The translations under genes and the position numbers were made by a program. Positions 4,638-48,978 of a stretch of DNA of 64,000 nt are shown here, piece by piece; within the stretch, counting starts at the first letter, position 1; each line of letters begins with the position of its first letter. Origin of the DNA: a virus. Lineage: Duplodnaviria > Heunggongvirae > Uroviricota > Caudoviricetes. The stretch covers positions 298,295 through 362,294 of the IMG/VR virus record IMGVR_UViG_3300003310_000099. One strand, 5' to 3'. The notes below the pieces were generated by a model. That model did no database searches and was not told where the DNA came from. It worked only from the letters and a program-made list of their open reading frames with translations.

Positions 4638-5627
4638 ATGACAATGGTTGCAGCACTGGAACTGAACGCCAACGGGACCGCGAACATGGCTTATGTTGGT
4701 GAGACGCCGTGGCATCGTTTGGGTACGGTGGTGGATGAGGCGGCGGCGTATGACGCTGAGGGTTTCATCAAGGCGGCTGGTTTGGATTGGGAAGCGGAAA
4801 AGGTGCGGTTGCAGACGTGCGACACTCAGGAAGCGGTGGACGCCTATATGGTTCGTCGGACTTCGGACAAGAAGAAGTTGGCGGATTCGGTGGGCGCACG
4901 GTACACGATTCTTCAGAATCGGGATGCGTTCAAGTGGTTCCAACCGTGGCTGGACGAAAAGGCGGCTGCGTTGCACACTGCGGGCGCTCTGTTCGAGGGT
5001 AGTCGCATCTGGATTTTGGCCAAGTTGAACCGTGATCCGATGGAGATTGCGGCGGGCGACATTGTTGAGAAGTATGTGCTTCTCAGTCATTCGCACGACG
5101 GTACGTTGGCGATTCGGTGCGGTTTCACGCCGATTCGGGTGGTTTGTTGGAATACGTTGAGCATGGCTCATTCCAACGATGCGTCGAAGCTGATTCGGGT
5201 GAAGCACAGTAAGAACGTCATCACGAATTTGGAAAACATTCGTGAGACGATGAACTTGGTGAATGCCGAGTTCGAGGCGACTGCGGAGCAGTATCGCATG
5301 TTGGCTTCCAAGTCGATCAATCAGGCCGACTTGAAGAAGTACATCAAGAAGGTTTTCTCCCTGGACGGGGTTGAAGACAAGGACATTAGCACGCGGTCCA
5401 AGAACATCATGGATGAGGTGATCGGGCTTTGTGAGGCGGGCAAGGGCAACAATCTGCCCTCCGTTCGCGGAACCTACTGGTCCGCGTACAATGGCGTAAC
5501 TGAATACCTCAGTTACGTTTCGGGCCGCAACGAGTCCAACCGAATGGATTCGCTGTGGTTCGGGAAGGCGAACGGCACGAATGCCGACGCCTTGGCCTAC
5601 GCCGTGGAAATGGCGATGGCGGTTTAA
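4638..5627 (+). CDS. DUF932 family phage/plasmid protein (TIGR03299-like)
   Basis: MAYVGETPWHRLG, SHDG, TPIRVVCWNTL and GTYWSAYNGVTEY motifs. Confidence 0.9.
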   Translation: MTMVAALELNANGTANMAYVGETPWHRLGTVVDEAAAYDAEGFIKAAGLDWEAEKVRLQTCDTQEAVDAYMVRRTSDKKKLADSVGARYTILQNRDAFKWFQPWLDEKAAALHTAGALFEGSRIWILAKLNRDPMEIAAGDIVEKYVLLSHSHDGTLAIRCGFTPIRVVCWNTLSMAHSNDASKLIRVKHSKNVITNLENIRETMNLVNAEFEATAEQYRMLASKSINQADLKKYIKKVFSLDGVEDKDISTRSKNIMDEVIGLCEAGKGNNLPSVRGTYWSAYNGVTEYLSYVSGRNESNRMDSLWFGKANGTNADALAYAVEMAMAV

Positions 5628-5714: not shown

Positions 5715-5948
5715 ATGACGACAATCCATTATGAATACCAATTGAGCATTCTTTCAAAATGCGGTTTAACGCAAGGGGCTTATGAGGCGGCGGTGACTGC
5801 ATTATTGACTCAACAGTATCCAGGGGCTACGATTGAAATAGCCATAGGCACTGACACCTATGGGACTTCGGACGAAATGAGGATATCGGACGCTGACATA
5901 ATTACAGTTGCTGACAATGCGATGGGTGAATTATGTTCGATACCTTAG
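5715..5948 (+). CDS. hypothetical protein
   Basis: AGGAG RBS after motif. Confidence 0.6.
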   Translation: MTTIHYEYQLSILSKCGLTQGAYEAAVTALLTQQYPGATIEIAIGTDTYGTSDEMRISDADIITVADNAMGELCSIP

Positions 5949-5964
5949 CTGTACTGAGTGAAGC

Positions 5965-6207
5965 ATGAAGACAGAACAAGCACTTTTGAAGAGGATTGAC
6001 GAATCGCCGCACAAGCGAACTTGTGTATTATGGGGATATCGGACACATCGCAAGAGGGGCAGTTATGGTAATCGTGAGTTCAACGCGATGATTAGGCTGC
6101 GGGATGCTGGGATTATTGAGATTATCAATAGTTCAAAGTATCAGGATTGCGGACGCACTTCGACTGACAACTGGCATGAGACGATTATACAAAGGAAGCC
6201 CATTTAG
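5965..6207 (+). CDS. hypothetical protein (leaderless)
   Basis: ATG at motif+21. Confidence 0.65.
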   Translation: MKTEQALLKRIDESPHKRTCVLWGYRTHRKRGSYGNREFNAMIRLRDAGIIEIINSSKYQDCGRTSTDNWHETIIQRKPI

Positions 6208-6360
6208 CTAAGCGCTTAGTTAGATTGGGTTTAGGGATAGCATACTCCCCTTTCAAGGGAGGGGTGGGGTGAAAGACCCTACGGGCCGAATGTGCCTAAT
6301 GGTGTAAAAATCCCCTTTGTATATCTTAGCTGTACCGAGTCAATTCTTTGGAGTTCAAAA

Positions 6361-6603
6361 ATGCTGACGGGCAAGGACTATCCTCATCTATGTTCGGCGT
6401 GTCAAGCTGCCATTGATGATATGGCAAGTTTGTATGGGGATGGTTTGATGGAAGACACGGACAATGAGGAAGCGGCTTGTGATGCCGTATACGATCATCG
6501 CATGTTTTGCGGTGGTGGGGAGTGTGTGAACAAGCCTATCAAGTATGTTCACGCACCTTATTGTCCAGGGCCGATGATGTGCAACTGTTACCCAACAAGG
6601 TGA
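6361..6603 (+). CDS. Cys-rich hypothetical protein
   Basis: GGAG RBS after motif 6325. Confidence 0.6.
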   Translation: MLTGKDYPHLCSACQAAIDDMASLYGDGLMEDTDNEEAACDAVYDHRMFCGGGECVNKPIKYVHAPYCPGPMMCNCYPTR

Positions 6604-6605
6604 AA

Positions 6606-6821
6606 ATGGAAAATCCAGTTTATCATGCGTGTCGGGTTGCGTTCAACTGCGGTACGGATGGGGTGCCGTGGCACATGGTATGTCACGCACTGAGGCAGGG
6701 TTTAGGATTGAAGTCTGCAATGACCTATACTCTTACTGAGAAGGACTTTGCAGCATATCCTGATTTACGGGAACTGGTGGATAGATTGGGCCAGACAGGT
6801 TTCGACAGCGACCCTAAGTGA
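6606..6821 (+). CDS. hypothetical protein, 3' end overlaps the tmRNA-like gene
   Basis: ATG just after upstream stop. Confidence 0.45.
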   Translation: MENPVYHACRVAFNCGTDGVPWHMVCHALRQGLGLKSAMTYTLTEKDFAAYPDLRELVDRLGQTGFDSDPK

Positions 6822-6924
6822 CAGGCTTGACCGTGGTAGGTCAGACGCGAAAAGATGCCTCAATTCAAGTAGCGTAGTTTGTCAGCAAGTCGTCTGGAAT
6901 CGGGTTCAAATCCCGACTGGTCCA
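6788..6924 (+). ncRNA. ssrA: Minimal tmRNA (137 nt), predicted tag (A)ASIQVA*
   Basis: 5' GGGCCAG-ACAGGTTTCGAC; acceptor GGGCCAG/CTGGTCC-A with G3.U70; T-arm TCGGG-TTCAAAT-CCCGA; helix 2 TGACAGGCT/AGTTTGTCA; resume context AAGAT-GCC. Confidence 0.8.
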
Positions 6925-7031
6925 CTTAAAGCTTAGCTGTACCAAGTGGTTTGTGTCGGGGAGGTGACTAAGGAAGTTTGCCAGTAACTCTCCAGTACCG
7001 ACATTAAATAAATTCACGGAAACTGGTATGC

Positions 7032-7116
7032 GGACACTGTTCCATACGTCCAGCTGTAACCTGGATGCCATTAAGATGTATGGTGGTGGCGGTGGGTTCG
7101 ATTCCTACAGTGTCCA
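7032..7116 (+). tRNA. tRNA-Tyr(GTA)-like RNA lacking a D-arm
   Basis: Acceptor GGACACT/AGTGTCC-A, anticodon arm TCCAG-CTGTAAC-CTGGA, T-arm GTGGG-TTCGATT-CCTAC; only 10 nt where the D-arm should be. Confidence 0.7.
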
Positions 7117-7143
7117 TTAAATCTTAGCTGTACCAAGGAGTTT

Positions 7144-7359
7144 GTGATGATGAAGGCATTGGCATTGGGCGTGGTGTGGGAGAGTGGCGAGAACAACTCG
7201 ATGGAGGTTGACGCCGACCTTGGTGCGCAGGAAGTTGCGGACCTCATGGAAAATGAATTTGGTTGTGAGTTTGACGACATTTTCATGGTGGTCAATGGGG
7301 ATGGTTGCCCTGATGTGGAGCATCATTGGCGGCGTGGCAAGCACTTTAACAGGGGATAG
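7144..7359 (+). CDS. acidic hypothetical protein
   Basis: GTG at motif+21. Confidence 0.55.
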   Translation: MMMKALALGVVWESGENNSMEVDADLGAQEVADLMENEFGCEFDDIFMVVNGDGCPDVEHHWRRGKHFNRG

Positions 7360-7586
7360 CAATGCAACAGTTTCGGGTTGAATTGGTGGTGACGGTGAAC
7401 ACTCTTGATACGGTGAGTGAGGCGGAAGTGCAGAGGCACTTGGAGGGCTACCTGGAAGATTTCGACATTGGGAATGCTGAGGTTCAGGAGTGTAAGGAAA
7501 TCTAAACCTTAGCTGTACCAAGTCAGTTGTGAGCTAAGCATGACGTGCTAAACATGCCGAGTACCGCCGCGTTAGTGCGGGCATTT

Positions 7587-7658
7587 GCCGCATTCGACTT
7601 CTAGTGAGGTCATCTGGCTTTCACCCAGAGTAGACGGGAGCGTAACCCGTATGCGGCA
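7587..7658 (+). tRNA. tRNA-Glu(TTC) with non-canonical T-loop
   Basis: Acceptor GCCGCAT/ATGCGGC-A, D-stem GACT/GGTC, anticodon arm TCTGG-CTTTCAC-CCAGA, T-arm ACGGG-AGCGTAA-CCCGT; no encoded CCA. Confidence 0.8.
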
Positions 7659-7714
7659 CTAAACCTTAGCTGTACCGAGTGAATTGTTACTTTTCTCTTT
7701 CTAAGGAGTTTGGA

Positions 7715-8158
7715 ATGGGTCGTTACAACAGCAGCAACATCGGTAACATGCTGGAAGAACTCATCAATGATGCGGTGGAAACCGCGATCAACGAGACGGA
7801 TTTCGAGGACAAGATCAACGATACGCTGCCCAATTTCGAGGACATGATCGAAAGGGCAGTCGATAACATCGACATTGACGACAAGGTGAACGACGCGGTT
7901 TCGGAAGCGTTGGACGAGTACGACATTTCCGAAAAGGTGGAGAAGGAAGTTGAGGCGGAACTGACCGCCCACCTCCACGAATACGTTGAGAACGAATTCG
8001 ATTCGTTCTCCAAGACCGACAAGTTCAAGGAACTGGTCATGGCGGAAGTGAATCGGGTATTGGACGCACGGGAAGCGGCGAAGCGTGCGAAGCTGGTGGA
8101 TTACGTCAAGTTTGGGCCGCTTCGTCGGTGGGTTGCGGCTTGGGGTAGCTGGTACTAA
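7715..8158 (+). CDS. highly acidic helical-repeat protein
   Basis: AAGGAG RBS; D/E-rich periodic sequence. Confidence 0.75.
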   Translation: MGRYNSSNIGNMLEELINDAVETAINETDFEDKINDTLPNFEDMIERAVDNIDIDDKVNDAVSEALDEYDISEKVEKEVEAELTAHLHEYVENEFDSFSKTDKFKELVMAEVNRVLDAREAAKRAKLVDYVKFGPLRRWVAAWGSWY

Positions 8159-8249
8159 GAAACAGGGAATCGCCCTCCCTGCTGGAAAGCTTAGCTGTAC
8201 TGAGTTAGTTGTGTCACTTACTTTTCTCTTTTTGAAAGGGTTTCGAGCA

Positions 8250-8558
8250 ATGGTCAAGAACGAACTGGTGCATGTTTGCGGCAACGAGACTTCCGAGGGT
8301 TTCAAGGTGCTTCCGCTGGTGGTTCGCAAGCCGCGTAAGGCCAAGGTGGTGAAGGCCAAGGGCAAGGCGGGTCGTCCGCGAGTGTACAACGGTACGCAAC
8401 GTCGCATCGTGGCGGCGGCGCTGAAGAAGCACGGTCTGACCAAGGGCTTGGAGTTCTTGGCCAAGGAACGCAAGCTCAAGGTGTCGATGACCTTGGCGAT
8501 TGCGGTTGCCAAGGAACACAAGATCGAGTTTCAGCGGGGCCGTCCCAAGGCCGCGTAA
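8250..8558 (+). CDS. basic protein with AT-hook-like GRPR/RGRPK motifs; putative DNA-binding
   Basis: Lys/Arg-rich, ends PKAA, followed by hairpin. Confidence 0.7.
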   Translation: MVKNELVHVCGNETSEGFKVLPLVVRKPRKAKVVKAKGKAGRPRVYNGTQRRIVAAALKKHGLTKGLEFLAKERKLKVSMTLAIAVAKEHKIEFQRGRPKAA

Positions 8559-8623
8559 GGGCTACAAGGGGGGACTGCAACCCCCTTGCCTGCGAGATTT
8601 CTAAATTCTAATTGGGGATTGCC

Positions 8624-8785
8624 ATGAACCGTGAACGCATGATTGACACGATTTGCCTTGACCTGGAGGGTTGGCTTGAGCGTGATCGTCAAGAGTTCCT
8701 GAATCATGTGGAGGAACTGGAGCGGGCTTATCTGAAAACGAAGTCCGACAAGGAACTGACGGAGATTTACGAGGCAAGCGTATAG
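8624..8785 (+). CDS. hypothetical protein
   Basis: 53-aa ORF with GGGG RBS ending at next motif. Confidence 0.55.
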   Translation: MNRERMIDTICLDLEGWLERDRQEFLNHVEELERAYLKTKSDKELTEIYEASV

Positions 8786-8837
8786 CTTAGCTGTACCGAG
8801 TGTGATGTAAGATTTCTTTTTCTCAAAGGGGATTTGA

Positions 8838-9080
8838 ATGGCTCGTCAGGAAACGACTGCTGGTTTCGAGGTTCTGCCGTTGCCGACGTATCGCACTTCT
8901 GCCAAGGAGTTTGCGGAGAAGGCCAAGGTCGATTATGCCGTGGCTCAGGGTTTCATCAAGTTCCTGGTCAGTCAGGGCATTGCGAAGGAAGTGGAGAAGC
9001 GTAAGGTTGTCGGTGCCAAGGGCAAGCCGACGAATGTGTATGAATTGCCGACTGAACTGCGGCTCAAGTTGGCGGCGTAA
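8838..9080 (+). CDS. winged-helix-like DNA-binding protein
   Basis: helix + LVSQGIAKEV + GKPTNVYEL wing; ends KLAA. Confidence 0.7.
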   Translation: MARQETTAGFEVLPLPTYRTSAKEFAEKAKVDYAVAQGFIKFLVSQGIAKEVEKRKVVGAKGKPTNVYELPTELRLKLAA

Positions 9081-9116
9081 GCCAAACAGGGGGGAACAAA
9101 CTGTTCCCCCCTTGAG

Positions 9117-9200
9117 GGCCGCGTGGTGGAATTGGCATACACAAGGGACTTAAAATCCCTCGCCTTTATCGGCTTATGGGTTCGAGTCCCATCGCGGCTA
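9117..9200 (+). tRNA. tRNA-Leu(TAA)
   Basis: Canonical cloverleaf: GTGGAATTGGCATACAC D-arm, AGGGA-CTTAAAA-TCCCT, long variable arm, GGTTCGAGTCC; no encoded CCA. Confidence 0.95.
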
Positions 9201-9239
9201 TTGCTTAGCTGTACTGAGTTCTTAAACGGAGGAATTTCG

Positions 9240-9428
9240 ATGTACGTTCTGAATGGGTGGAATCGGCGTGATGGTGAACTGGAGCAGAATTTCACCAAGA
9301 ATGAGGGTGAGACTGCTTTGGCGATTGCCCGAATTTGGCTGAGTAAGGGTTGGCGTCCTGTCTTGAAGTCTTACGTTGGCGGGATTCATCTCGTTCCTCT
9401 TTCTGTTCCGCTGCGTAAGGCTGCGTAG
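9240..9428 (+). CDS. hypothetical protein
   Basis: GGAGG RBS; ends RKAA. Confidence 0.65.
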   Translation: MYVLNGWNRRDGELEQNFTKNEGETALAIARIWLSKGWRPVLKSYVGGIHLVPLSVPLRKAA

Positions 9429-10864: not shown

Positions 10865-11254
10865 ATGACTCAACGCGAAGCGGTTTTTCAGGCGTGTGAG
10901 GATTTGGATGTGCGTTCGAGCGTGCCGACTTTGTTGAATGCGGCTGAGCGGATTTACGGTGGGGACATTACCTATCAGGCAGCGGTGAGTTATCGGTGCG
11001 AGTATCGCAAGCTGCACGGTATCAAGACGGACTGCCGCAAGAACGGGAAGAAGGGCCAATGGCGTCGGGACATGAAGAATGACCATACTGCTTCGTTGAA
11101 GCAGGTGAAGCGGCTGCATCACTTCCTCAAGTTGAAGCGGCCATCGGTGTCAAGTCTGGTGGCTTTGATGGGGGATGGCAGTGAAATGTTCCATAGCGTG
11201 GAACAGATCAAGAACGCGATTGCGGAATTCAACGAACTGCGAAAGGTTGCTTAA
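10865..11254 (+). CDS. hypothetical protein, paralogous to 15080..15547
   Basis: GGAG RBS; shared YxCxxRK...DCR motif. Confidence 0.65.
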   Translation: MTQREAVFQACEDLDVRSSVPTLLNAAERIYGGDITYQAAVSYRCEYRKLHGIKTDCRKNGKKGQWRRDMKNDHTASLKQVKRLHHFLKLKRPSVSSLVALMGDGSEMFHSVEQIKNAIAEFNELRKVA

Positions 11255-11291
11255 CCTTACAGGGTTCGCCCCCTGCTTTGGAGAATTTAAG

Positions 11292-12200
11292 ATGTGCAGT
11301 GTTAAGGGATGCGATAAGCCATGTGCTACAAATCGCAAGATGTGCGAACAGCATTTGGAAATATATCGTAATCGCTCAAAAAAAGTAATACAACAATATA
11401 TTGCAGATGGAAAATGCAGATATTGTCCTCAATTAAGGTTGCCTAATTTCCAAGTATGTGAAATGCACCTTTTGAAAAATAGGGCAAAATGTAAACTTCG
11501 TGGTGAAAAGCTAAGGCAAGAAGTTTTTGACCACTATGGAAAGCAATGTGTCTGTTGCGGCGAGTCAGAAATTAAGTTCTTGACCATCGACCATATCGGG
11601 AACGATGGCAGCACTCATCGTAAGAAGGAAAAGGTTGGGTCGGGAGGCAGTTTCTATGCTTGGTTAAAAAGAAATAATTTTCCTTCTGGCTTTCAAGTTC
11701 TTTGCTGGAATTGCAACGCGGCCAAGGGGCTATACGGTTCTTGCCCACATAACTTAGCTGTACCGAGTAAACATATGAACAATAAAATTCTCGTCATCAT
11801 GCAGGGGCACAGTGGTTCAGGTAAGTCTACCTTGGCGAAACAAATCGCCAAGGTAATTGACGCAGAAATCTTCTCCACGGATGAACTTTTCATTGTAAAC
11901 GGAGTTTATAAATTTGACCCTTCAAAATTAGGATTCTTCCACAAGAAGAACCTTGATAATTGCATTGCAGCAATGAAGAGGGGCGTGAATGTTGTGTGCG
12001 ACAACACAAACATTCGTCAATGGGAAGCTAAAGGGTATGTGGAAGCTGCCCTTGATTTGGGTTTTGAGGTTAAATTCATTCGAGCAACTGGAAACTTTCA
12101 GAACGTGCATGGCGTGCCGAATGACAAGGTTGAGCAGATGCGTGCGCGGCTGGAAGACTTGACGGTGGAAAGTGTCATGGCGAGCAAGAAGCCTTTTTAG
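11292..12200 (+). CDS. HNH endonuclease in frame with an AAA_33/N4BP2-like P-loop polynucleotide kinase (kinase has own start at 11775)
   Basis: CVCCG...LTIDHI...QVLCWNCNAAK; then GHSGSGKST, STD, DNTN, NVHGVP. Confidence 0.85.
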   Translation: MCSVKGCDKPCATNRKMCEQHLEIYRNRSKKVIQQYIADGKCRYCPQLRLPNFQVCEMHLLKNRAKCKLRGEKLRQEVFDHYGKQCVCCGESEIKFLTIDHIGNDGSTHRKKEKVGSGGSFYAWLKRNNFPSGFQVLCWNCNAAKGLYGSCPHNLAVPSKHMNNKILVIMQGHSGSGKSTLAKQIAKVIDAEIFSTDELFIVNGVYKFDPSKLGFFHKKNLDNCIAAMKRGVNVVCDNTNIRQWEAKGYVEAALDLGFEVKFIRATGNFQNVHGVPNDKVEQMRARLEDLTVESVMASKKPF

Positions 12201-15600: not shown

Positions 15601-16695
15601 ATGAACACTCAAGAATATCTGCGTAACGGCAAGACGTTGGAAGACTTGACCTCTGAGTTTCACATCAACGTCACGAAGCACGATACGTTGCCGTTGGTCA
15701 TCCTGAACTACGATCAGATTGAGTCGCCTAAGACTCATCCGATTGTGCGGGAATGCCGTGGTTTGGTTCTCAACTCTGAGGACTATTCGCTGGTGGCGCG
15801 GGCTTTCGGACGGTTTTTCAATTGGGGTGAAGTGGCGGATGAGATGCCGTTGTTCGATTGGGATTCGTGCGTAGCTCACGAAAAGGTTGACGGTTCGCTG
15901 GTTCTCATCTACTACTTCGATGGACGTTGGCACGCGAATACGCGAGGCTCGTTCGCTGGTTGGCCGCTGTTCAACGATGAATATGTGGCGAAGTATTACG
16001 GTTTGCCGACGACGTTCAAGTGGTCCGATGGTTTCCTCAAGGCTTTAGGTGTCAATTCCCTTGAAGAGTTGAACCTTGACAAGTCGTTGACGTATGTATG
16101 CGAGTTTTGTTCGCTCTGGAACAAGGTAGTTCGGACGTACAATGAACCGTGTATGTATATGTTGACGCGGTTTGCGGGCATGGAGGAAATCGGGCCGACG
16201 TATCATCCGAACTTCAAGACGCTGGGGGCTTATCCGTTGAAGTCTGTACAGGATGTGCAGTCGTTTGTGATGGATCATCCCGAAGCGACTTTCGAGGGTG
16301 TAGTCGTCAAGGATGATGCGCACCGACGTTGGAAGTTGAAGAATCCGCGATACGTTGCGTTGCACCACATGAAGGGGAACGGTACGGAAATCTTCAAGCC
16401 TAAGAACTTGATGCCGTACATCCTCAAGAATGAGGGCGACGAATTGCTGACGTACTTCCCCGAAGTCAAGGATGTGTTTGCGGAGTACAAGGGCAAGGTT
16501 GACGATGCCTACAACGTCCTAGAAACGCTCTGGAAGGCGAATAAGGATATTCCCGTCCAAAAGGATTTTGCGTTGTCTATCGTGGGCAAGACGCCGTTTA
16601 CTTCAGTTCTGTTCAATCTCCGCAAGCAAGGGGGAACGTTGCGGGATGAATGGATGAAGCACGGGGATGGCATTCTGAAAGTGTTGTTCAAGTAG
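15601..16695 (+). CDS. RNA ligase, T4 Rnl1-like
   Basis: ECRGLVL, RFFNWGE, motif I EKVDGSL, motif IV EGVVV, motif V KLKNPRY; leaderless start. Confidence 0.9.
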   Translation: MNTQEYLRNGKTLEDLTSEFHINVTKHDTLPLVILNYDQIESPKTHPIVRECRGLVLNSEDYSLVARAFGRFFNWGEVADEMPLFDWDSCVAHEKVDGSLVLIYYFDGRWHANTRGSFAGWPLFNDEYVAKYYGLPTTFKWSDGFLKALGVNSLEELNLDKSLTYVCEFCSLWNKVVRTYNEPCMYMLTRFAGMEEIGPTYHPNFKTLGAYPLKSVQDVQSFVMDHPEATFEGVVVKDDAHRRWKLKNPRYVALHHMKGNGTEIFKPKNLMPYILKNEGDELLTYFPEVKDVFAEYKGKVDDAYNVLETLWKANKDIPVQKDFALSIVGKTPFTSVLFNLRKQGGTLRDEWMKHGDGILKVLFK

Positions 16696-34347: not shown

Positions 34348-35865
34348 TTACTCTTGTTTGTTATTAAAAGACTTACGGAACTTATCAGTTTCAATATTCT
34401 TAATAGCACTACCGAACTCTTCACCTTGAGGGATTCTGCCGCCAAGGTGTTGTACGATTTCTGGGTTTACTACTCTTCTATCGCCATCCTGAACATAACC
34501 TCTTGTCTGCATATCGTGAGATATGAACTTGTTCATAACGTCGTCTGGAAGTTTATTCATCCTACCCCATTGCTTTGCCAAGCTTGGGACGATGCCTGTT
34601 TTGTGGAAATTTTTCTTCATATCATAGAACTTATCGAAGAACGCTTGTGGATTTTGTTCATGCGAAGAAACCCACTTAGCAAGTTCGATCAAGTGTGTGA
34701 TATCACGAATTTCGTCATTGGTCCAAGTGCCTTGACGAAGTGCTTTTTCAATTTTAAATGTTGGGTTGTTTCTCAACAGCCAAGCGATGGCTAATCTCTT
34801 TTCTTTTTTATCACTGAAGTCTTCAGGTGCATCTAGTTTGAATTCCAAGTCTGGGAATACAGTATTCAGCATACCCAATTCTTTGAATAGTTTTACATAG
34901 TGTGCTGGATCAACGTCTGGATGTTGTAGACCCTTCAAGAATTCATCCCTAATACGTTCACGGCTTACAGATGGCAAGTCCTTAATATCTGTAATTGCTT
35001 CCTTTACGTCATCTGGAATTTTGGTGTTCTTACCATGAGAAGCTACGAAGCGAAGGTAACGCATAGCTCTTAGCTGATCTTCTTCCAATCTTTCTCTTGC
35101 ATTGCCGACGAATTTTACTTCTCCGCTTCTGATGTGGTGAGCGCCACCGTGAGGATCAATAAGTTTAGCGTTTGCACCATCTGCGGTTGTAAGTGGGATA
35201 TACATAGAGTTCATGGTGAAGTCACGGCGTTGTGCATCATCATCGAGTCCAGCGAATTCCATGCGATCTGGTGTTCTCCCGTCACCGCTCTTGGAGTCTT
35301 TTCTGAAAGTTGCGATTTCAAATTCTTCGCCGTTGACTCTAGCGCCGATTACGAATTCTTTACCACTACGGTCCCAGCCCTTGGCATAGAAAATCTTGCT
35401 TTTATTACCAGCTTCTGGGTGTTTTTCATATTTCTTATCAATAGGCGCATTCTTTCCAGTCTGTGGTTTAGTTTCAGCGAAACCTGCACTTCTTAGAATT
35501 AATCTGATTTCATCTGGGGTTGCGTCTGTAGCCAGGTCATAGTCTTTAGGAGTTTTGCCTTTAAGATGATCCCTTACTGCACCGCCGACTAAGTATAGAC
35601 CTTTCTTTTTCAATTTAGGTGTGGTTTCACCTTTAGATGGGTCCATAGTTGTTAATTTTTGTGGATAGCCATCTGGACCAGGCAGACTAACTTGGCCACT
35701 ATCAAGGAATGCCTTGATGATGGTTCTTAGATTAGGATGACGTTCAGCGTCAACTGTAAATGGCTTGAAGTCACTGTCATCACCGAGTTTAACTTCGGAT
35801 GGTGCCTTCTTTCCACCTTCTACATTTTCTTTCAAGCTCAAGTATTCTAAAAAAGTTTTTCTCAT
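34348..35865 (-). CDS. cca: CCA-adding tRNA nucleotidyltransferase (class II)
   Basis: LVGGAVRD, DYDLAT, EIATFR, DAQRRDFTMN, EDQLRAMRYLRF, VSRERIRDEF. Confidence 0.9.
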   Translation of the reverse strand: MRKTFLEYLSLKENVEGGKKAPSEVKLGDDSDFKPFTVDAERHPNLRTIIKAFLDSGQVSLPGPDGYPQKLTTMDPSKGETTPKLKKKGLYLVGGAVRDHLKGKTPKDYDLATDATPDEIRLILRSAGFAETKPQTGKNAPIDKKYEKHPEAGNKSKIFYAKGWDRSGKEFVIGARVNGEEFEIATFRKDSKSGDGRTPDRMEFAGLDDDAQRRDFTMNSMYIPLTTADGANAKLIDPHGGAHHIRSGEVKFVGNARERLEEDQLRAMRYLRFVASHGKNTKIPDDVKEAITDIKDLPSVSRERIRDEFLKGLQHPDVDPAHYVKLFKELGMLNTVFPDLEFKLDAPEDFSDKKEKRLAIAWLLRNNPTFKIEKALRQGTWTNDEIRDITHLIELAKWVSSHEQNPQAFFDKFYDMKKNFHKTGIVPSLAKQWGRMNKLPDDVMNKFISHDMQTRGYVQDGDRRVVNPEIVQHLGGRIPQGEEFGSAIKNIETDKFRKSFNNKQE

Positions 35866-45819: not shown

Positions 45820-48800
45820 ATGGGAGCATGTCCTGGTATAAGTGGTGGGATAGATGTATTTACACAATGCTCAAGTGTTCCAGTAAATGCCGATAACATG
45901 TATTGTTGTTCTGGCATAGAAAATAAATTCATCAATTATGATGATCCTTATCTATTTGTTGCTGCGCCTAGTTGTGTAAATTTCAGTTTTTATTATAAAA
46001 ATGATGACAATCAGCCGATGTTGAAATCCCCTTTAAACGGCACTTCACAATCCCCTTGGGTAAGGGTAGCTTTTCAGGAATATTGTGTTGAGGGCAATCG
46101 TTCTATTGGTGCTACGAATCAAACTATTATCACTACTGGAAATGTATCACAGTATGGTGGCGACAATGCCGAAAAATGTACCGCCGCAATTAAAGCATTC
46201 CAATATGGTTGGGGAACCGTTGACTCTGGGAACCGTTGTAGAATAACAATTATTGACGAAGAAGGTGGCGGTTTTGAGACGTGGGCCAGAAGAATGGCAA
46301 CCAACGCAGAAGGCGCATCAGCACCAGTAAAAGGACAGTATAAGATGAAGGTGCAATGGGGCTGGTACATTGCAGGAGGAGGTCCAAACGATCAGTGTGG
46401 GCAAGGTGCGGCCCCACCTCCAACTGGAAACAACACATCTGACCCACCTCCTGGGCAAAATACTTCATATAGTATATGCAGCCCAACCTCATGGTTTTTG
46501 CCAGATGCAATCACAGTAAATTGGGAAAATGGCAAGTTTATATACACTTTAGAGGGCGTTGATTTACTAGTTAGAGGGCAAGAGCAAAGATTGAATAGAG
46601 TATTTGGGCAAGATGGCGGTAGCAATAACCCTTTTAATGTGCCGATGTTTTTTACGGATGCGGTCAAACTTTTAGGCACTTACTCAATGCCTCCTTTCAG
46701 ACCAAGGTTTTTATCCTTAAATGCTAGCGGCAAATTAGTCAGCATGAAATTCGCAAGAAGAAAAGGTCCATTGTTAGATGACGAGTGTAAAGGTCCATTT
46801 GCACAATGGCCAACAAGTGAGCTACCGCCCCTGGATATAATAAGAAGGTGGCTTAATGATTTTCCAGTATTGGCGATAGATCAAACAGGTAATATAGAAT
46901 CGCCAGACAAAAAAATAGGCATCACATTAAATTATGACTCTATATTGGACCTTACAAGCTCAACTGGTAAATTTCCAGTAGATAGTTGTGAAAAAGATAT
47001 ACAAGGATGCGGCAGCGACGACCCTACGTCATGTTGCGATCCTAAACTGCCAGAAGTGGGTTCTTTAATTTTGTGGGCTTCTAATGGCGTACCTCATTGT
47101 CAATCGAATGTAACTGGCTTAGATGACAGAATGAAAGCAGTTTATATTGTTAATGGGGGAAATTGCGTAAATGGAAGTAGTGAAATATTGACAGAAGATG
47201 GATGGCAAAGAATAAACAATATTGTTAAAAATAAATATGATGGAAAAGTAGCATGTTTAAATCAAAGTAATGAACTTACTTGGTCAAAAATAAACAATTG
47301 GTACAGAAATAAAATCAACGATAGAAAATTAATAAAAGTTCATTTACATAATAGTCGTCAAAGAAAAGGTAGCATTAGTGGAGCTATTTTCACTGATGAC
47401 CATCCAATACTAACTGACAGAGGTTATGTAGAAGTAAGACATTTGAACTTAGTAGAACATAAAATCAATTCTGGTACTTATCAGCCTTCAAAGGAAGTAC
47501 ACCAAGCAATATTAGGCATGATGTTAGGTGATGGATATATTCGTAATAAAAGTTACAGTTTTCATTGTGCCCATAGTGAAAAACAAAGAGCATACATTGA
47601 GCATAAAGCGACTATGCTTGACTTAAAAGTAATAAACAAGCCTACAAAATATCCTACTGTTAAAATTACATCCAAGTCATCTCCTTATTGGAGGTCATTA
47701 AGAAAGTTATTTTATCCTAATGGCACCAAGATAATTAATGGATATGTGTTAAAAGATTTTAGCATTATATCTTTAGCTTATCTTTTCATGGATGATGGGC
47801 ATTTGAAACTAAACAAAAAACTAGCAGAAATAGCGACTTGTGGATTTACGAACGAAGAAGTTGATTTATTAATGGATAAAATCCATGAATTGGGTATTAA
47901 ATGTTATAGAAGAAAGGGCAGCAAGTATCCAAGAATTCATTTTAGTGTAGATCAAACTAAAGTGTTGTCAGAAAAGATTGCTCCATATGTGATTGAGTCA
48001 ATGAATTATAAAATACTAGACCAACATAGATTTGTCAAGAAATTTAAACTAGATACAAAGCAAGAAATATTTTATGATACTTTTGATTTAGTAAGATGTG
48101 AAAAACTAGAAAAGGCAACAAAATTAGTTTATTGTATAGATGTAGACGATCATCATAATTTTATAACTCATTCTGGGGTTGTGCATAATTGTTCGCCAGT
48201 TCTTTCATTCAATCCAGTAGTCAGATGGCATTTCTTGTTAGGTCTGAAAGCTGGTGGTGTATCATTGCCAATATCTGGTAAACAAAGAAAGCAAACAGAA
48301 GGGTTGGCGGGAACTGGTTGTAATGTTCAAGGTGGACGAAGCGCACTGAGTCAACCTAATCCAAGTCAAGCTGTTGTTGGAACAATGGATCAGCCTGAAC
48401 AGCAAGTTGCTGTAGCAAGAGTTTTGCATACGGCAGGCAATTTGATGGTACACGCTATTGAGGCAGAATTAAGGGTACAGGGTGATCCTAGTGCTTGGCT
48501 ATGCTCACCTATTTCTGGGTTTGGCAAATGTGTGGGCATTATATTTATTAATCCATTTTTCTTAAAAGAAGATGCAATAGAGGGAAATTGTCCTGCTTTT
48601 AAACAAACTACTGCTAATGTATGCAATAATTTTTTAACAAATAAGGGGTGGTTCATAAAAGGTGTAGAGCATCAAGTTAAAGAAGGTAGTTATATTACTA
48701 CTATAAAATTAGCTTTGCCTGCGCCTGGGGCGGAATTAAAATTCAGTAGTGATGGTGGTGTAATTACTGGTGTTGGTGGATGGCCAGGTGGCGCTAAAAT

Positions 48801-48978
48801 GAATTTTGGTGGAACAAACGCAACTATTAAGCAATACCCACAAGGAGATGTGGCGGCTAATTGGCAAACAGTGCCATACGATAATCCTGGTCCTGATTGC
48901 CCAACCGTATGTTATCAGGGCGGCGGTTCAGGCATACAGCCTCCAAATGTTGATTGTCCAGAACCTGTCGGAGGATAA
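45820..48978 (+). CDS. baseplate hub protein (gp27/gpD-like) containing an intein
   Basis: Synteny; AELRVQGDP and GWFIKGVEHQVKEGSYITTIKL C-terminal hub signature. Confidence 0.7.
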   Translation: MGACPGISGGIDVFTQCSSVPVNADNMYCCSGIENKFINYDDPYLFVAAPSCVNFSFYYKNDDNQPMLKSPLNGTSQSPWVRVAFQEYCVEGNRSIGATNQTIITTGNVSQYGGDNAEKCTAAIKAFQYGWGTVDSGNRCRITIIDEEGGGFETWARRMATNAEGASAPVKGQYKMKVQWGWYIAGGGPNDQCGQGAAPPPTGNNTSDPPPGQNTSYSICSPTSWFLPDAITVNWENGKFIYTLEGVDLLVRGQEQRLNRVFGQDGGSNNPFNVPMFFTDAVKLLGTYSMPPFRPRFLSLNASGKLVSMKFARRKGPLLDDECKGPFAQWPTSELPPLDIIRRWLNDFPVLAIDQTGNIESPDKKIGITLNYDSILDLTSSTGKFPVDSCEKDIQGCGSDDPTSCCDPKLPEVGSLILWASNGVPHCQSNVTGLDDRMKAVYIVNGGNCVNGSSEILTEDGWQRINNIVKNKYDGKVACLNQSNELTWSKINNWYRNKINDRKLIKVHLHNSRQRKGSISGAIFTDDHPILTDRGYVEVRHLNLVEHKINSGTYQPSKEVHQAILGMMLGDGYIRNKSYSFHCAHSEKQRAYIEHKATMLDLKVINKPTKYPTVKITSKSSPYWRSLRKLFYPNGTKIINGYVLKDFSIISLAYLFMDDGHLKLNKKLAEIATCGFTNEEVDLLMDKIHELGIKCYRRKGSKYPRIHFSVDQTKVLSEKIAPYVIESMNYKILDQHRFVKKFKLDTKQEIFYDTFDLVRCEKLEKATKLVYCIDVDDHHNFITHSGVVHNCSPVLSFNPVVRWHFLLGLKAGGVSLPISGKQRKQTEGLAGTGCNVQGGRSALSQPNPSQAVVGTMDQPEQQVAVARVLHTAGNLMVHAIEAELRVQGDPSAWLCSPISGFGKCVGIIFINPFFLKEDAIEGNCPAFKQTTANVCNNFLTNKGWFIKGVEHQVKEGSYITTIKLALPAPGAELKFSSDGGVITGVGGWPGGAKMNFGGTNATIKQYPQGDVAANWQTVPYDNPGPDCPTVCYQGGGSGIQPPNVDCPEPVGG
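47164..48189 (+). mobile_element. Intein with LAGLIDADG homing endonuclease (342 aa)
   Basis: N|CVNGSSEILT start, TDDHPILT block B, LGMMLGDG and YLFMDDG blocks, VYCIDVDDHHNF...VHN|C end. Confidence 0.95.

What the first reader, a model, noticed from the sequence alone, without database searches (positions are those of the whole stretch)
6788..6924. A 137-nt minimal tmRNA with an intact tag ORF
Seen in sequence: a tmRNA-type 5' end (GGGCCAG ACAGGTTTCGAC), a 7-bp acceptor stem with the G3.U70 alanine determinant and discriminator A, and a canonical T-arm. Helix 2 is AGCGAC/GTCGTCT plus TGACAGGCT/AGTTTGTCA. A possible PK1 is TGAC/GTCA with CGTG/CGCG. Then come AAAAGAT and GCC TCA ATT CAA GTA GCG TAG (6857-6877), giving ASIQVA*, whose stop runs straight back into helix 2. 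Established: bacterial tmRNAs are about 350 nt with PK2-PK4, resume at GCN and have hydrophobic/Ala-ending tags. Inference: this is a stripped-down phage tmRNA lacking PK2-4. It would use host SmpB, need CCA added (phage cca at 34348-35865), and either rescue ribosomes with an altered tag or act as an SmpB/AlaRS decoy.
Basis: partly seen in the sequence, partly recalled or inferred. Interest (0 to 1): 0.92.

Follow-up and report, generated by a model that had tools for sequence, protein, structure and literature searches.

The report
Jumbo-phage 137-nt miniature tmRNA gene
A giant phage carries a real, conserved 137-base miniature of the bacterial ribosome-rescue RNA (tmRNA) that keeps the alanine-accepting end and a folded stub of the coding part. 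The short "tag" reading frame is not conserved, so the RNA probably competes with or hijacks the host's rescue system and may not add a real tag.

Summary
The RNA gene at 6788-6924 is real. Rfam tmRNA (RF00023) scores it at 49.8 bits, above the gathering score of 47, although ARAGORN misses it. Three relatives (two jumbo-phage records and one metagenome contig) keep it at 83-94% identity, while the only alignable flanking DNA is 69-72% identical. All six helices covary: 10 of 37 pairs carry double changes.

The proposed PK1 second stem is not. The one variable base breaks it and is compensated instead in a nested 4-bp helix that closes a 23-nt loop holding the A-rich stretch and GCC.

The GCC frame gives ASIQVA*, ASTQVA*, ASIK* and A* in the four relatives. 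Indels are not multiples of three and there is no degron-like end.

At least four other viral or metagenomic lineages share the same roughly 135-nt architecture with an A-rich-GCC/GCA loop. Two of them have no in-frame stop.

None of the five phage records searched for SmpB encodes it. One relative also carries a full-length tmRNA.

Best reading (0.45): a tag-less competitor or hijacker of host SmpB and trans-translation. Rival (0.30): a true minimal rescue template.

This scan has already noted a look-alike 136-nt element on other DNA. I class it as a new variant of a known kind.

The parts
6788..6924 (+). Whole mini-tmRNA gene (137 nt, no encoded CCA)
   Evidence: RF00023 scores 49.8 bits against a gathering score of 47. 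My own model R1 scores 164.9 bits. The conserved block against relatives is 6785-6929.
6788..6794 (+). Acceptor stem, 5' strand. It pairs with 6917-6923. G3:U70 is 6790:6921 and the discriminator A is 6924.
   Evidence: All 7 pairs are kept. C5-G becomes U-A in one relative. G3:U70 is invariant in 11 of 11 class members.
6798..6806 (+). GGUUUCGAC, the D-loop analogue of the tRNA-like domain. It contains the GAC triplet whose mutation was used to disrupt SmpB binding in H. pylori tmRNA.
   Evidence: Invariant in all 11 aligned class members. PMC2584231 describes the SsrA-SmpB mutant G19U/A20U/C21A.
6806..6812 (+). Helix 2a, 5' strand. It pairs with 6889-6896, with U at 6893 bulged.
   Evidence: 100% paired. 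C25-G102 changes to U-A and to G-C in relatives.
6819..6827 (+). Helix 2b, 5' strand. It pairs with 6876-6884.
   Evidence: 4 of 9 pairs carry double changes. In the metagenome relative the helix is rewritten as CAAUUAG/CUAAUUG.
6828..6843 (+). Hairpin H3 (UGACC-GUGGUA-GGUCA), in the place where PK1 sits in full-length tmRNA
   Evidence: A-U becomes U-A in one relative. A hairpin holds this position in all 11 class members, and the GUGGUA loop recurs in two other lineages.
6845..6848 (+). Helix H5, 5' strand (ACGC). It pairs with 6872-6875 (GCGU) and closes the 23-nt loop.
   Evidence: G60-C86 becomes C-G in relative G002. At class level 95.5% of cells pair and all 4 pairs carry double changes.
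6849..6871 (+). 23-nt loop GAAAAGAUGCCUCAAUUCAAGUA, holding an A-rich stretch followed by GCC (6857-6859), a stub that looks like a resume site
   Evidence: GAAAAGAUGCCUCAA is identical in 3 of 4 relatives. Every one of the five class lineages has an A-rich stretch followed by GCC or GCA in this loop.
6857..6877 (+). Putative tag frame GCC UCA AUU CAA GUA GCG UAG (ASIQVA*)
   Evidence: Present in the window. The frame is not conserved: relatives give ASTQVA*, ASIK* and A*. Codons 6-7 lie in helices H5 and H2b.
6900..6916 (+). T-arm (UCGGG-UUCAAAU-CCCGA)
   Evidence: Two pairs carry double changes in relatives.
6932..6946 (+). Copy of the repeated 15-nt motif CTTAGCTGTACCAAG, 7 nt after the RNA's 3' end. 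It is probably a phage promoter or an RNA-processing signal.
   Evidence: 61 copies in the window against 0 expected by chance. Relatives have a TGTACYAA core at the same place.
34348..35865 (-). CCA-adding enzyme / poly(A) polymerase family gene, which could add the missing CCA
   Evidence: PF01743 at 2.5e-26 and PF12627 at 4.1e-08.
4638..5627 (+). DUF932 gene, a syntenic marker about 1.2 kb upstream of the RNA in all three jumbo-phage relatives that carry it
   Evidence: PF06067 at 1e-50. Synteny is shown.

Best explanation
It is a genuine phage gene for a miniature tmRNA.

Anatomy:
- A complete alanine-type tRNA-like domain, with G3:U70, discriminator A, the GG..UUCGAC D-loop analogue and a T-arm.
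- A two-part helix 2.
- A small three-way junction made of one hairpin and a 4-bp helix. That helix closes a 23-nt loop carrying an A-rich stretch followed by GCC, which looks like a stub of the resume site.

Proposed mechanism. Every step is inferred and none is shown.
1. The RNA is cut out of an early polycistronic transcript, with RNase P making the 5' end.
2. The phage's own nucleotidyltransferase adds CCA.
3. Host AlaRS charges it with alanine, and it binds host SmpB and EF-Tu.
4. It then competes with host tmRNA for SmpB and stalled ribosomes, so the proteolysis tag is not added during infection.

The short GCC frame is not a conserved tag. The folded 48-nt ring is too small to wrap the 30S beak as the pseudoknot ring of full-length tmRNA does.
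For: Shown:
- RF00023 scores above the gathering score here and in the relatives: 49.8, 48.1 and 50.4 bits.
- All six helices covary.
- The RNA is better conserved than its flanks.
- G3:U70 and GGUUUCGAC are invariant in 11 class members.
- No SmpB gene was found in the five phage records searched: G000, G001, G002, G003 and G004.
- No CCA is encoded, and a CCA-adding-family gene is present.

Against a templated tag, and so in favour of this reading:
- The tag length varies from 1 to 6 codons through non-triplet indels, and the conserved AAGUAG is read in different frames.
- The stop codon and the last sense codon sit in helices H5 and H2b, which covary.
- Two sister lineages with the same architecture have no in-frame stop after GCC.
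- The canonical ring measures 81x97 A and later 96x128 A around the 30S beak (PMC8363625). This ring is 48 nt. That it is too small is my inference.

Precedent: Hudson, Lau and Williams 2014 state that the TLD-only tmRNA of phage DS6A resembles a molecule that strongly inhibits tmRNA, perhaps by titrating SmpB (PMC4131195).
Against: - The A-rich-GCC/GCA motif is conserved in the loop of all five lineages, whatever the sequence of the neighbouring hairpin loop. That is what a working resume codon predicts. A pure decoy needs an extra assumption, such as a second SmpB contact or an S1 contact.
- All four members of this lineage keep an in-frame stop within 2-7 codons. G002's only in-frame stop is the UAA directly after GCC.
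- Relative G001 also carries a phage-borne full-length tmRNA with a canonical tag, ATPYEYALAA. An SmpB sponge would inhibit that RNA too.
- There is no expression, charging or binding data. The closest relative by the DUF932 gene (G004, 98% complete) lacks the gene, so it is dispensable.
Confidence: 0.45

Rival explanations
1. It is a working minimal tmRNA. Ala-charged RNA with host SmpB enters stalled ribosomes, translation resumes at GCC (6857), and the ribosome terminates after 1-6 codons. Ribosomes are released and the protein gets a short tail (AASIQVA here) that is not a ClpXP-type degron. The result is rescue without proteolytic marking.
For: - The layout matches the order PK1, A-rich linker, resume GCN of full-length tmRNA (E. 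coli layout recalled from memory): a hairpin in the PK1 position, a 13-nt A-rich linker with A at -4, then GCC.
- A-rich-GCC/GCA is conserved in all five lineages.
- All four members of this lineage keep an in-frame stop despite indels.
- G001 keeps both a full-length tagging tmRNA and the mini form, which suggests the two are not redundant.
Against: - The frame and peptide are not conserved, and two sister lineages have no stop in the GCC frame.
- The stop codon and part of the linker are locked in covarying helices.
- With GCC in the A site, only 19 nt remain before helix 2b and 32 nt before helix 2a. The canonical ring has to pass round the 30S beak, with dimensions of 81x97 to 96x128 A (PMC8363625). 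A closed 48-76-nt ring looks too short. This is my inference and was not modelled.
- Four sequences give little statistical power for the in-frame-stop argument.
Confidence: 0.3
2. It is a tRNA-like RNA with a job outside trans-translation. Candidates are a decoy or substrate for anti-phage tRNA/tmRNA-targeting nucleases, a partner of the phage's tRNA-repair enzymes, or an RNase P punctuation signal for processing the early polycistronic transcripts.
For: - It sits in a run of odd tRNA-like genes (7032-7115, 7566-7659, 9117-9200). Each is followed by the same 15-nt motif.
- The window also encodes an Rnl1-type RNA ligase, an AAA_33 kinase-like protein and a CCA-adding-family enzyme.
- Phage T4 has stable RNAs of unknown function with tRNA-like ends in its tRNA cluster, rnaC and rnaD.
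Against: - The features that are conserved are specifically tmRNA features: GG..UUCGAC, G3:U70, GGA before the T-arm, and helix 2. That is why RF00023 scores above its gathering score.
- A processing signal alone would not need the conserved three-way junction and its loop.
- T4 rnaC matches only through its acceptor and T arms, at 22.9 bits with R1 and with no RF00023 hit.
Confidence: 0.15
3. It is a decaying remnant of a full-length phage tmRNA, or an att-site fragment of host ssrA, with no function.
For: - A relative (G001) has a full-length tmRNA.
- The gene is absent from the closest relative, G004.
- IMG/VR labels the record 'provirus'.
Against: - Both halves of the tRNA-like domain are present, so it is not a 3' att fragment.
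- Compensatory changes occur in every helix.
- It is conserved more strongly than the flanking coding DNA.
- The same architecture recurs in at least five lineages.
- By eye, it shows no sequence likeness to G001's full-length tmRNA beyond the generic TLD.
Confidence: 0.05

Closest known systems
One-piece bacterial and phage tmRNA (Rfam RF00023), for example the full-length tmRNA in relative G001 (359 nt, tag ATPYEYALAA)
   Same: The tRNA-like domain with G3:U70, discriminator A, GG..UUCGAC and T-arm. Helix 2. An A-rich stretch followed by a GCN alanine codon downstream of a structured element. Dependence on a host SmpB.
   Different: It is 137 nt, where the Rfam model has 374 positions. PK2-4 and the H5 ORF hairpin are absent, and PK1 is replaced by a plain hairpin. 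The resume-like codon sits in a 23-nt closed loop. The frame is 1-6 codons long, is not conserved, and has no (Y)ALAA-type end. ARAGORN does not detect it.
'TLD only' tmRNA of Mycobacterium phage DS6A (Hudson, Lau and Williams 2014, PMC4131195; the TLD-only inhibition result is attributed there to Mao et al. 2009)
   Same: A phage-encoded, drastically shortened tmRNA with a complete alanine-type tRNA-like domain, and a proposed role in titrating SmpB. I saw 68-79-nt forms of this kind in many viral contigs.
   Different: This RNA keeps about 60 extra nucleotides: helix 2b, a hairpin, and a helix-closed loop with a conserved A-rich-GCC motif and, in this lineage, an in-frame stop. It is intermediate between TLD-only and full-length forms.
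Engineered H. pylori SsrA-STOP, with stop codons placed directly after the resume codon (PMC2584231)
   Same: It shows that a tmRNA adding only one templated residue can still rescue ribosomes. Relative G002 reads GCC UAA in just this way.
   Different: That construct keeps the full-size scaffold with all its pseudoknots. Here the scaffold itself is reduced.
Phage T4 stable RNAs rnaC (species 1, 139 nt) and rnaD (species 2, 119 nt)
   Same: Phage-encoded stable RNAs of similar size in a tRNA cluster. rnaC has a tRNA-like acceptor/T-arm end that includes a G3:U pair.
   Different: rnaC gives no RF00023 match at E <= 1. It lacks the GG..UUCGAC motif and shares no helix 2 or three-way-junction architecture. 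R1 aligns only the acceptor and T arms, at 22.9 bits.
Two-piece (permuted) tmRNAs of marine phages, for example OM43 phage Melnitz (PMC9004378)
   Same: Phage-borne tmRNA variants that depart from the standard one-piece form.
   Different: Those are permuted, full-function genes with a normal tag ORF. This one is unpermuted and miniaturised.

Membership tests
tmRNA (Rfam RF00023) | Covariance-model score at or above the curated gathering score (47 bits) | tested here: met
   The window scores 49.8 bits. Relatives score 48.1 and 50.4 bits. Only the TLD and helix 2 align, and the 269 interior model positions are skipped.
tmRNA (Rfam RF00023) | Alanine-type tRNA-like domain: 7-bp acceptor stem with G3:U70, discriminator A, T-arm, and a D-loop analogue with GG..UUCGAC | tested here: met
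   Read directly from the sequence. These features are invariant or covarying in 4 family members and 11 class members.
tmRNA (Rfam RF00023) | Long helix 2 joining the TLD to the rest of the molecule | tested here: met
   Helix 2a (7 bp) and helix 2b (9 bp) both carry compensatory changes.
tmRNA (Rfam RF00023) | Pseudoknot PK1 just upstream of the resume codon | tested here: not met
   Only a hairpin is supported. The proposed second stem (nt 45-48 with 59-62) has no covariation and is broken in G002. The same change is compensated in nested helix H5.
tmRNA (Rfam RF00023) | mRNA-like domain: a resume GCN codon followed by a conserved tag ORF that ends in a stop and encodes a proteolysis tag | tested here: inconclusive
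   The A-rich-GCC motif is conserved, and all four lineage members have an in-frame stop. However, the peptides are ASIQVA, ASTQVA, ASIK and A, the indels are not multiples of three, and none has a degron-like end. Two sister lineages have no stop.
tmRNA (Rfam RF00023) | Pseudoknots PK2-PK4 forming the ring around the 30S beak | tested here: not met
   Only 48 nt lie between the two strands of helix 2b, which leaves no room for them.
tmRNA (Rfam RF00023) | Alanylation by AlaRS, binding of SmpB and EF-Tu, and entry into stalled ribosomes | not testable with these tools
   Only the sequence determinants are present: G3:U70, A73 and the UUCGAC GAC triplet.
TLD-only phage tmRNA (DS6A type) | [quoted passage not shown] | tested here: not met
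   About 60 extra conserved, covarying nucleotides with a resume-like GCC loop. True TLD-only forms of 68-79 nt are distinct sequences in my scans.
TLD-only phage tmRNA (DS6A type) | Phage-encoded and reliant on host SmpB | tested here: met
   The window lies in a 373-kb virus record. PF01668 is absent from G000-G004.
Phage T4 rnaC/rnaD stable RNAs | Sequence or structure homology to T4 species 1 and 2 RNAs | tested here: not met
   R1 matches only the acceptor and T arms of rnaC, at 22.9 bits. rnaC and rnaD give no RF00023 hit.

The most novel reading that the evidence does not exclude
The 133-137-nt three-way-junction RNAs are natural, fully working minimal tmRNAs. With host SmpB they resume translation at the loop GCC and release the ribosome after 1-6 codons. 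That would show that neither the pseudoknot ring nor a degradation tag is needed for trans-translation, and that phages use 'rescue without destruction'.
Probability: 0.28. Interest if true: 0.85.

Novelty: new variant of a known kind. Interest (0 to 1): 0.62.

Why it matters
tmRNA is a textbook RNA about 350 nt long, and its ring of pseudoknots is thought to be needed to thread the coding part into the ribosome. Here evolution has cut it to 137 nt. It keeps the alanine-accepting end and the sequence around the resume codon, and the same design recurs in several unrelated phage lineages.

If the RNA still templates release, it defines the minimal working tmRNA and a rescue mode without a degradation tag. 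If it is a competitor, it is a cheap RNA weapon against a host quality-control pathway. That would explain why shortened tmRNAs are common in phages yet invisible to ARAGORN, the program that the phage-genome studies I read used to call tmRNAs. Either outcome can be tested with simple assays.

Tried and rejected
- ARAGORN on the window, the whole genome and the relatives' loci did not call the mini-tmRNA.
- blastn of the region and of the RNA against 50,697 GenBank phage records found no homologue, only a 30-nt T-arm match.
- The 14-mer GACCGTGGTAGGTC in IMG/VR retrieved only the three known relatives. The other matches were chance.
- The pattern CGTGGTAGNNCNGACNCGAAAA found four bacterial MAG hits in genome contigs, all chance matches and none a tmRNA. 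In IMG/VR it found only the known relatives.
- I considered a kissing pair between the hairpin loop GGUA and the loop UGCC. It is invariant in this family, so it cannot be tested there. Sister lineages keep GCC with unrelated hairpin loops, so it is unlikely to be general (by eye).
- TAG recoding is rejected, even though the genome has a tRNA(CUA). Making TAG a sense codon lengthens ORFs less than doing the same for TGA or TAA.
- Derivation from G001's full-length tmRNA is not supported. By eye there is no likeness beyond the generic TLD.
- T4 rnaC/rnaD are not homologues.
- Partial hits of sister-lineage RNAs to cultured phages (Cellulophaga Calle, Xanthomonas Rb1 and JGB6, Synechococcus S-CAM3) were not members of this architecture.

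Full report
**What is there.** The window is bases 298295-362294 of a 373,404-bp IMG/VR virus record. It is a jumbo phage with 58 ARAGORN tRNA genes.
- a 7-bp acceptor stem GGGCCAG/CTGGTCC with G3:U70, discriminator A, then CTT and not CCA;
- ACAGGTTTCGAC, the tmRNA D-loop analogue;
- the T-arm TCGGG-TTCAAAT-CCCGA;
- two helix-2 segments;
- GCC TCA ATT CAA GTA GCG TAG at 6857-6877.

Rfam's tmRNA model RF00023 matches 6788-6927 end to end at 49.8 bits (gathering score 47, E = 1.2e-16). It aligns the tRNA-like domain and helix 2 and skips 269 interior positions. ARAGORN does not call the gene. The MFE fold (-46.7 kcal/mol, z = -2.7) gives the same helices.

**Relatives and conservation.** Pattern scans of IMG/VR and of metagenome contigs, filtered for a paired acceptor stem, found three further distinct sequences of the same RNA.
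- G001 is IMGVR_UViG_3300014202_001521 (341 kb). The identical sequence occurs in the 129-kb record G003.
- G002 is IMGVR_UViG_3300037137_001027 (160 kb).
- The third is on metagenome contig Ga0315275_10727886 (133 nt).

RF00023 scores 48.1 bits in G001 and 50.4 bits in G002, both above the gathering score.

In the jumbo-phage relatives the RNA lies about 1.2 kb downstream of the same DUF932 gene. blastn shows the conserved block is window 6785-6929, exactly the RNA. It is 94% identical to G001 and 83% to G002, while the DUF932 gene is 72% and 69% identical and the DNA between them does not align at all.

G004 (390 kb, 98% complete) is the closest relative by DUF932, at 87% amino-acid identity. 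It lacks the RNA at this locus and anywhere else. The gene is therefore accessory.

**Structure.** I built covariance model R1 from the four sequences and realigned them to it.
- 97.3% of cells form standard pairs.
- 10 of 37 pairs have changes on both sides, spread over all six helices.
- 0 of 500 shuffles reach the observed percentage of paired cells, number of double-change pairs or covariation score, and slid controls give 0-1.

Examples of the changes:
- Acceptor pair C5-G becomes U-A.
- T-stem pairs U-A and C-G are swapped.
- H2a pair C25-G102 becomes U-A in one relative and G-C in another.
- H2b is rewritten as CAAUUAG/CUAAUUG in the metagenome member.
- The hairpin stem GACC/GGUC becomes GUCC/GGAC.

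Nucleotides 58-61 (ACGC) pair with 85-88 (GCGU), which is window 6845-6848 with 6872-6875. In G002 this helix is ACCC/GGGU. It closes a 23-nt loop, GAAAAGAUGCCUCAAUUCAAGUA.

The interior is therefore a three-way junction of helix 2b, a hairpin with loop GUGGUA, and this helix-closed loop. Its only variable position (G60 to C in G002) breaks that stem and is compensated in the nested helix instead. PK1 as proposed is not supported.

**The tag frame.** Reading from GCC, the four members give ASIQVA*, ASTQVA*, ASIK* and A* (GCC UAA).
- The stretch between GCC and the conserved AAGUAG differs in length by 12-14 nt, so that hexamer is read in different frames.
- The peptides share no C-terminal character.
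- In the window, the last sense codon and the stop (GCG UAG) lie inside helices H5 and H2b.

This is not how a tag under coding selection behaves. Still, all four keep a stop in the GCC frame within 2-7 codons, and G002's only in-frame stop is the UAA directly after GCC. With four sequences this is suggestive at best.

**A wider class.** R1 also matches, end to end at 37-64 bits, RNAs of 134-137 nt from unrelated viral and metagenome contigs. Aligned together they make 11 sequences in five lineages: the window's lineage plus four others.
- They share the whole architecture. 90.4% of cells pair, 28 of 37 pairs have double changes, and the loop-closing helix is 95.5% paired with double changes at all four pairs.
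- G3:U70 and GGUUUCGAC are invariant.
- Every lineage has an A-rich stretch followed by GCC (GCA in one) in the closed loop, whatever the neighbouring hairpin loop is. That argues against GCC being merely a kissing partner and for homology with the resume site.
- Two lineages, the L126/L154/L165 group and L353, have no stop in the GCC frame before the 3' end.

My scans also picked up many 68-79-nt forms that consist of the tRNA-like domain alone.

**Context relevant to function.**
- None of the five phage records searched (G000, G001, G002, G003, G004) encodes SmpB.
- The RNA lacks an encoded CCA in all four members.
- The window encodes a CCA-adding/poly(A)-polymerase-family protein at 34348-35865, an Rnl1-type RNA ligase and an AAA_33 kinase-like protein.
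- G001 also has a 359-nt canonical tmRNA (120 bits, tag ATPYEYALAA). It sits among phage genes including a DNA polymerase, so it is phage-borne. The mini form is therefore not simply a replacement for a full-length one.
- The window's genome has no full-length tmRNA.
- The genome is not TAG-recoded.

**Literature.**
- Hudson, Lau and Williams 2014 list phage ssrA genes. [quoted passage not shown]
- In H. pylori, a tmRNA with stop codons placed directly after the resume codon is viable. One templated codon is therefore enough for rescue on a full-size scaffold (PMC2584231).
- Cryo-EM shows the MLD, H5 and PK ring as an ellipse of 81x97 A, later 96x128 A, around the 30S beak (PMC8363625).
- I found no paper describing natural tmRNAs of about 135 nt.

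**Mechanism.** The sequence determinants for alanylation and SmpB binding are intact, so the RNA should be charged and bound by host factors. This is inferred. What happens next is open.

The ring between the strands of helix 2b is 48 nt. With the hairpin folded, I estimate its contour at roughly 230 A at most. That is below the roughly 280-350 A perimeter of the canonical ring. With GCC in the A site, only 32 nt remain before helix 2a. This is my own estimate and I did not model it.

Four points lead me to favour a tag-less competitor or hijacker of the host SmpB/trans-translation system (0.45): the unconserved frame, the stop buried in covarying helices, the sister lineages without a stop, and the small ring.

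A true minimal rescue template is my second choice (0.30). The conserved A-rich-GCC motif, the in-frame stops in all four lineage members, and the coexistence with a full-length tmRNA in G001 keep that rival alive.

A role outside trans-translation gets 0.15. A functionless remnant gets 0.05 and is contradicted by the covariation.

**Comparison and novelty.** By its tRNA-like domain and helix 2, and by its Rfam score, this RNA is a member of the tmRNA family in the broad sense. It fails the PK1 and PK2-4 features, and the test for a conserved tag is inconclusive. It is not a TLD-only form either, because about 60 extra nucleotides are conserved and covary. T4 rnaC and rnaD are not homologues.

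Other notes report many TLD-only phage forms. My alignment and covariation results were obtained independently of those notes.

I rate it a new variant of a known kind.

Noticed in passing
window 96-26902 (61 sites; e.g. 6932-6946, 7123-7137, 7665-7679, 9204-9218): The 15-nt motif CTTAGCTGTACYRAG occurs 61 times with up to one mismatch, 59 of them on the + strand, against 0 expected by chance. In the stretch I read (5900-9400), copies precede the small ORFs and follow each tRNA-like gene. The whole genome has 110 + strand copies of the core, concentrated at 250-330 kb. Relatives have a TGTACYAA core at the matching place. It is probably a promoter for a phage RNA polymerase or an RNA-processing site.
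   Followed up: partly
window 7032-7115: An 84-nt non-canonical tRNA-like gene with an 8-bp acceptor stem, a GGTTCGATTCC T-loop and an anticodon-like loop CUGUAAC (GUA). ARAGORN does not call it. The only Rfam match is a weak tRNA-Sec hit (25.2 bits, below the gathering score).
   Followed up: partly
window 7566-7659: ARAGORN reports 'tRNA-???' with a 2-nt anticodon (ag). No Rfam match covers it at E <= 1, and about 80% identical DNA is present in relative G004. It is another odd tRNA-like element in the same array.
   Followed up: no
window 6606-6821: A 71-codon ORF (ATG at 6606 after an AAGGTG ribosome-binding site) runs 34 nt into the 5' end of the RNA gene before its TGA. If RNase P cuts at 6788, the upstream message would lose its stop codon. 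The ORF region shows no nucleotide or translated similarity in the relatives.
   Followed up: partly
own genome C1:24758-24884 and C1:82583-82660 (outside the window): Two more alanine-type (G3:U70) tRNA-like RNAs give weak RF00023 matches, at 29.1 and 22.3 bits. They are 127 and 78 nt long and lack the UUCGAC motif. G004 has two weak RF00023 hits of similar kind, one clearly similar to the 78-nt element.
   Followed up: partly
own genome C1:167507-167581 (outside the window): A tRNA with anticodon CUA, an amber suppressor that ARAGORN labels 'Pyl'. The genome shows no sign of TAG recoding.
   Followed up: partly
window 45820-48978: A 1052-aa ORF interrupted by an intein with a LAGLIDADG homing endonuclease (PF03161 at 3.9e-25; Intein_splicing at 7.4e-07).
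   Followed up: no
window 11175-12200, 15601-16695, 34348-35865: A likely tRNA-repair and maturation set: an AAA_33 kinase-like protein, a T4 Rnl1-type RNA ligase and a CCA-adding-family enzyme. All lie in the same early region as the tRNA-like genes.
   Followed up: no
L265 1503-1859 (-) = G001:C1:8556-8914: The related jumbo phage G001 carries a canonical 357-359-nt tmRNA (120 bits, tag ATPYEYALAA) next to its DNA polymerase gene, in addition to the mini-tmRNA.
   Followed up: yes
L128, L129, L141, L146, L164, L185, L398 and others: Many viral and metagenome contigs carry 68-79-nt RNAs that consist only of a tmRNA tRNA-like domain with G3:U70. Several 114-130-nt forms with other interiors also occur (L136, L144, L151, L160, L163, L177, L191, L357).
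   Followed up: partly
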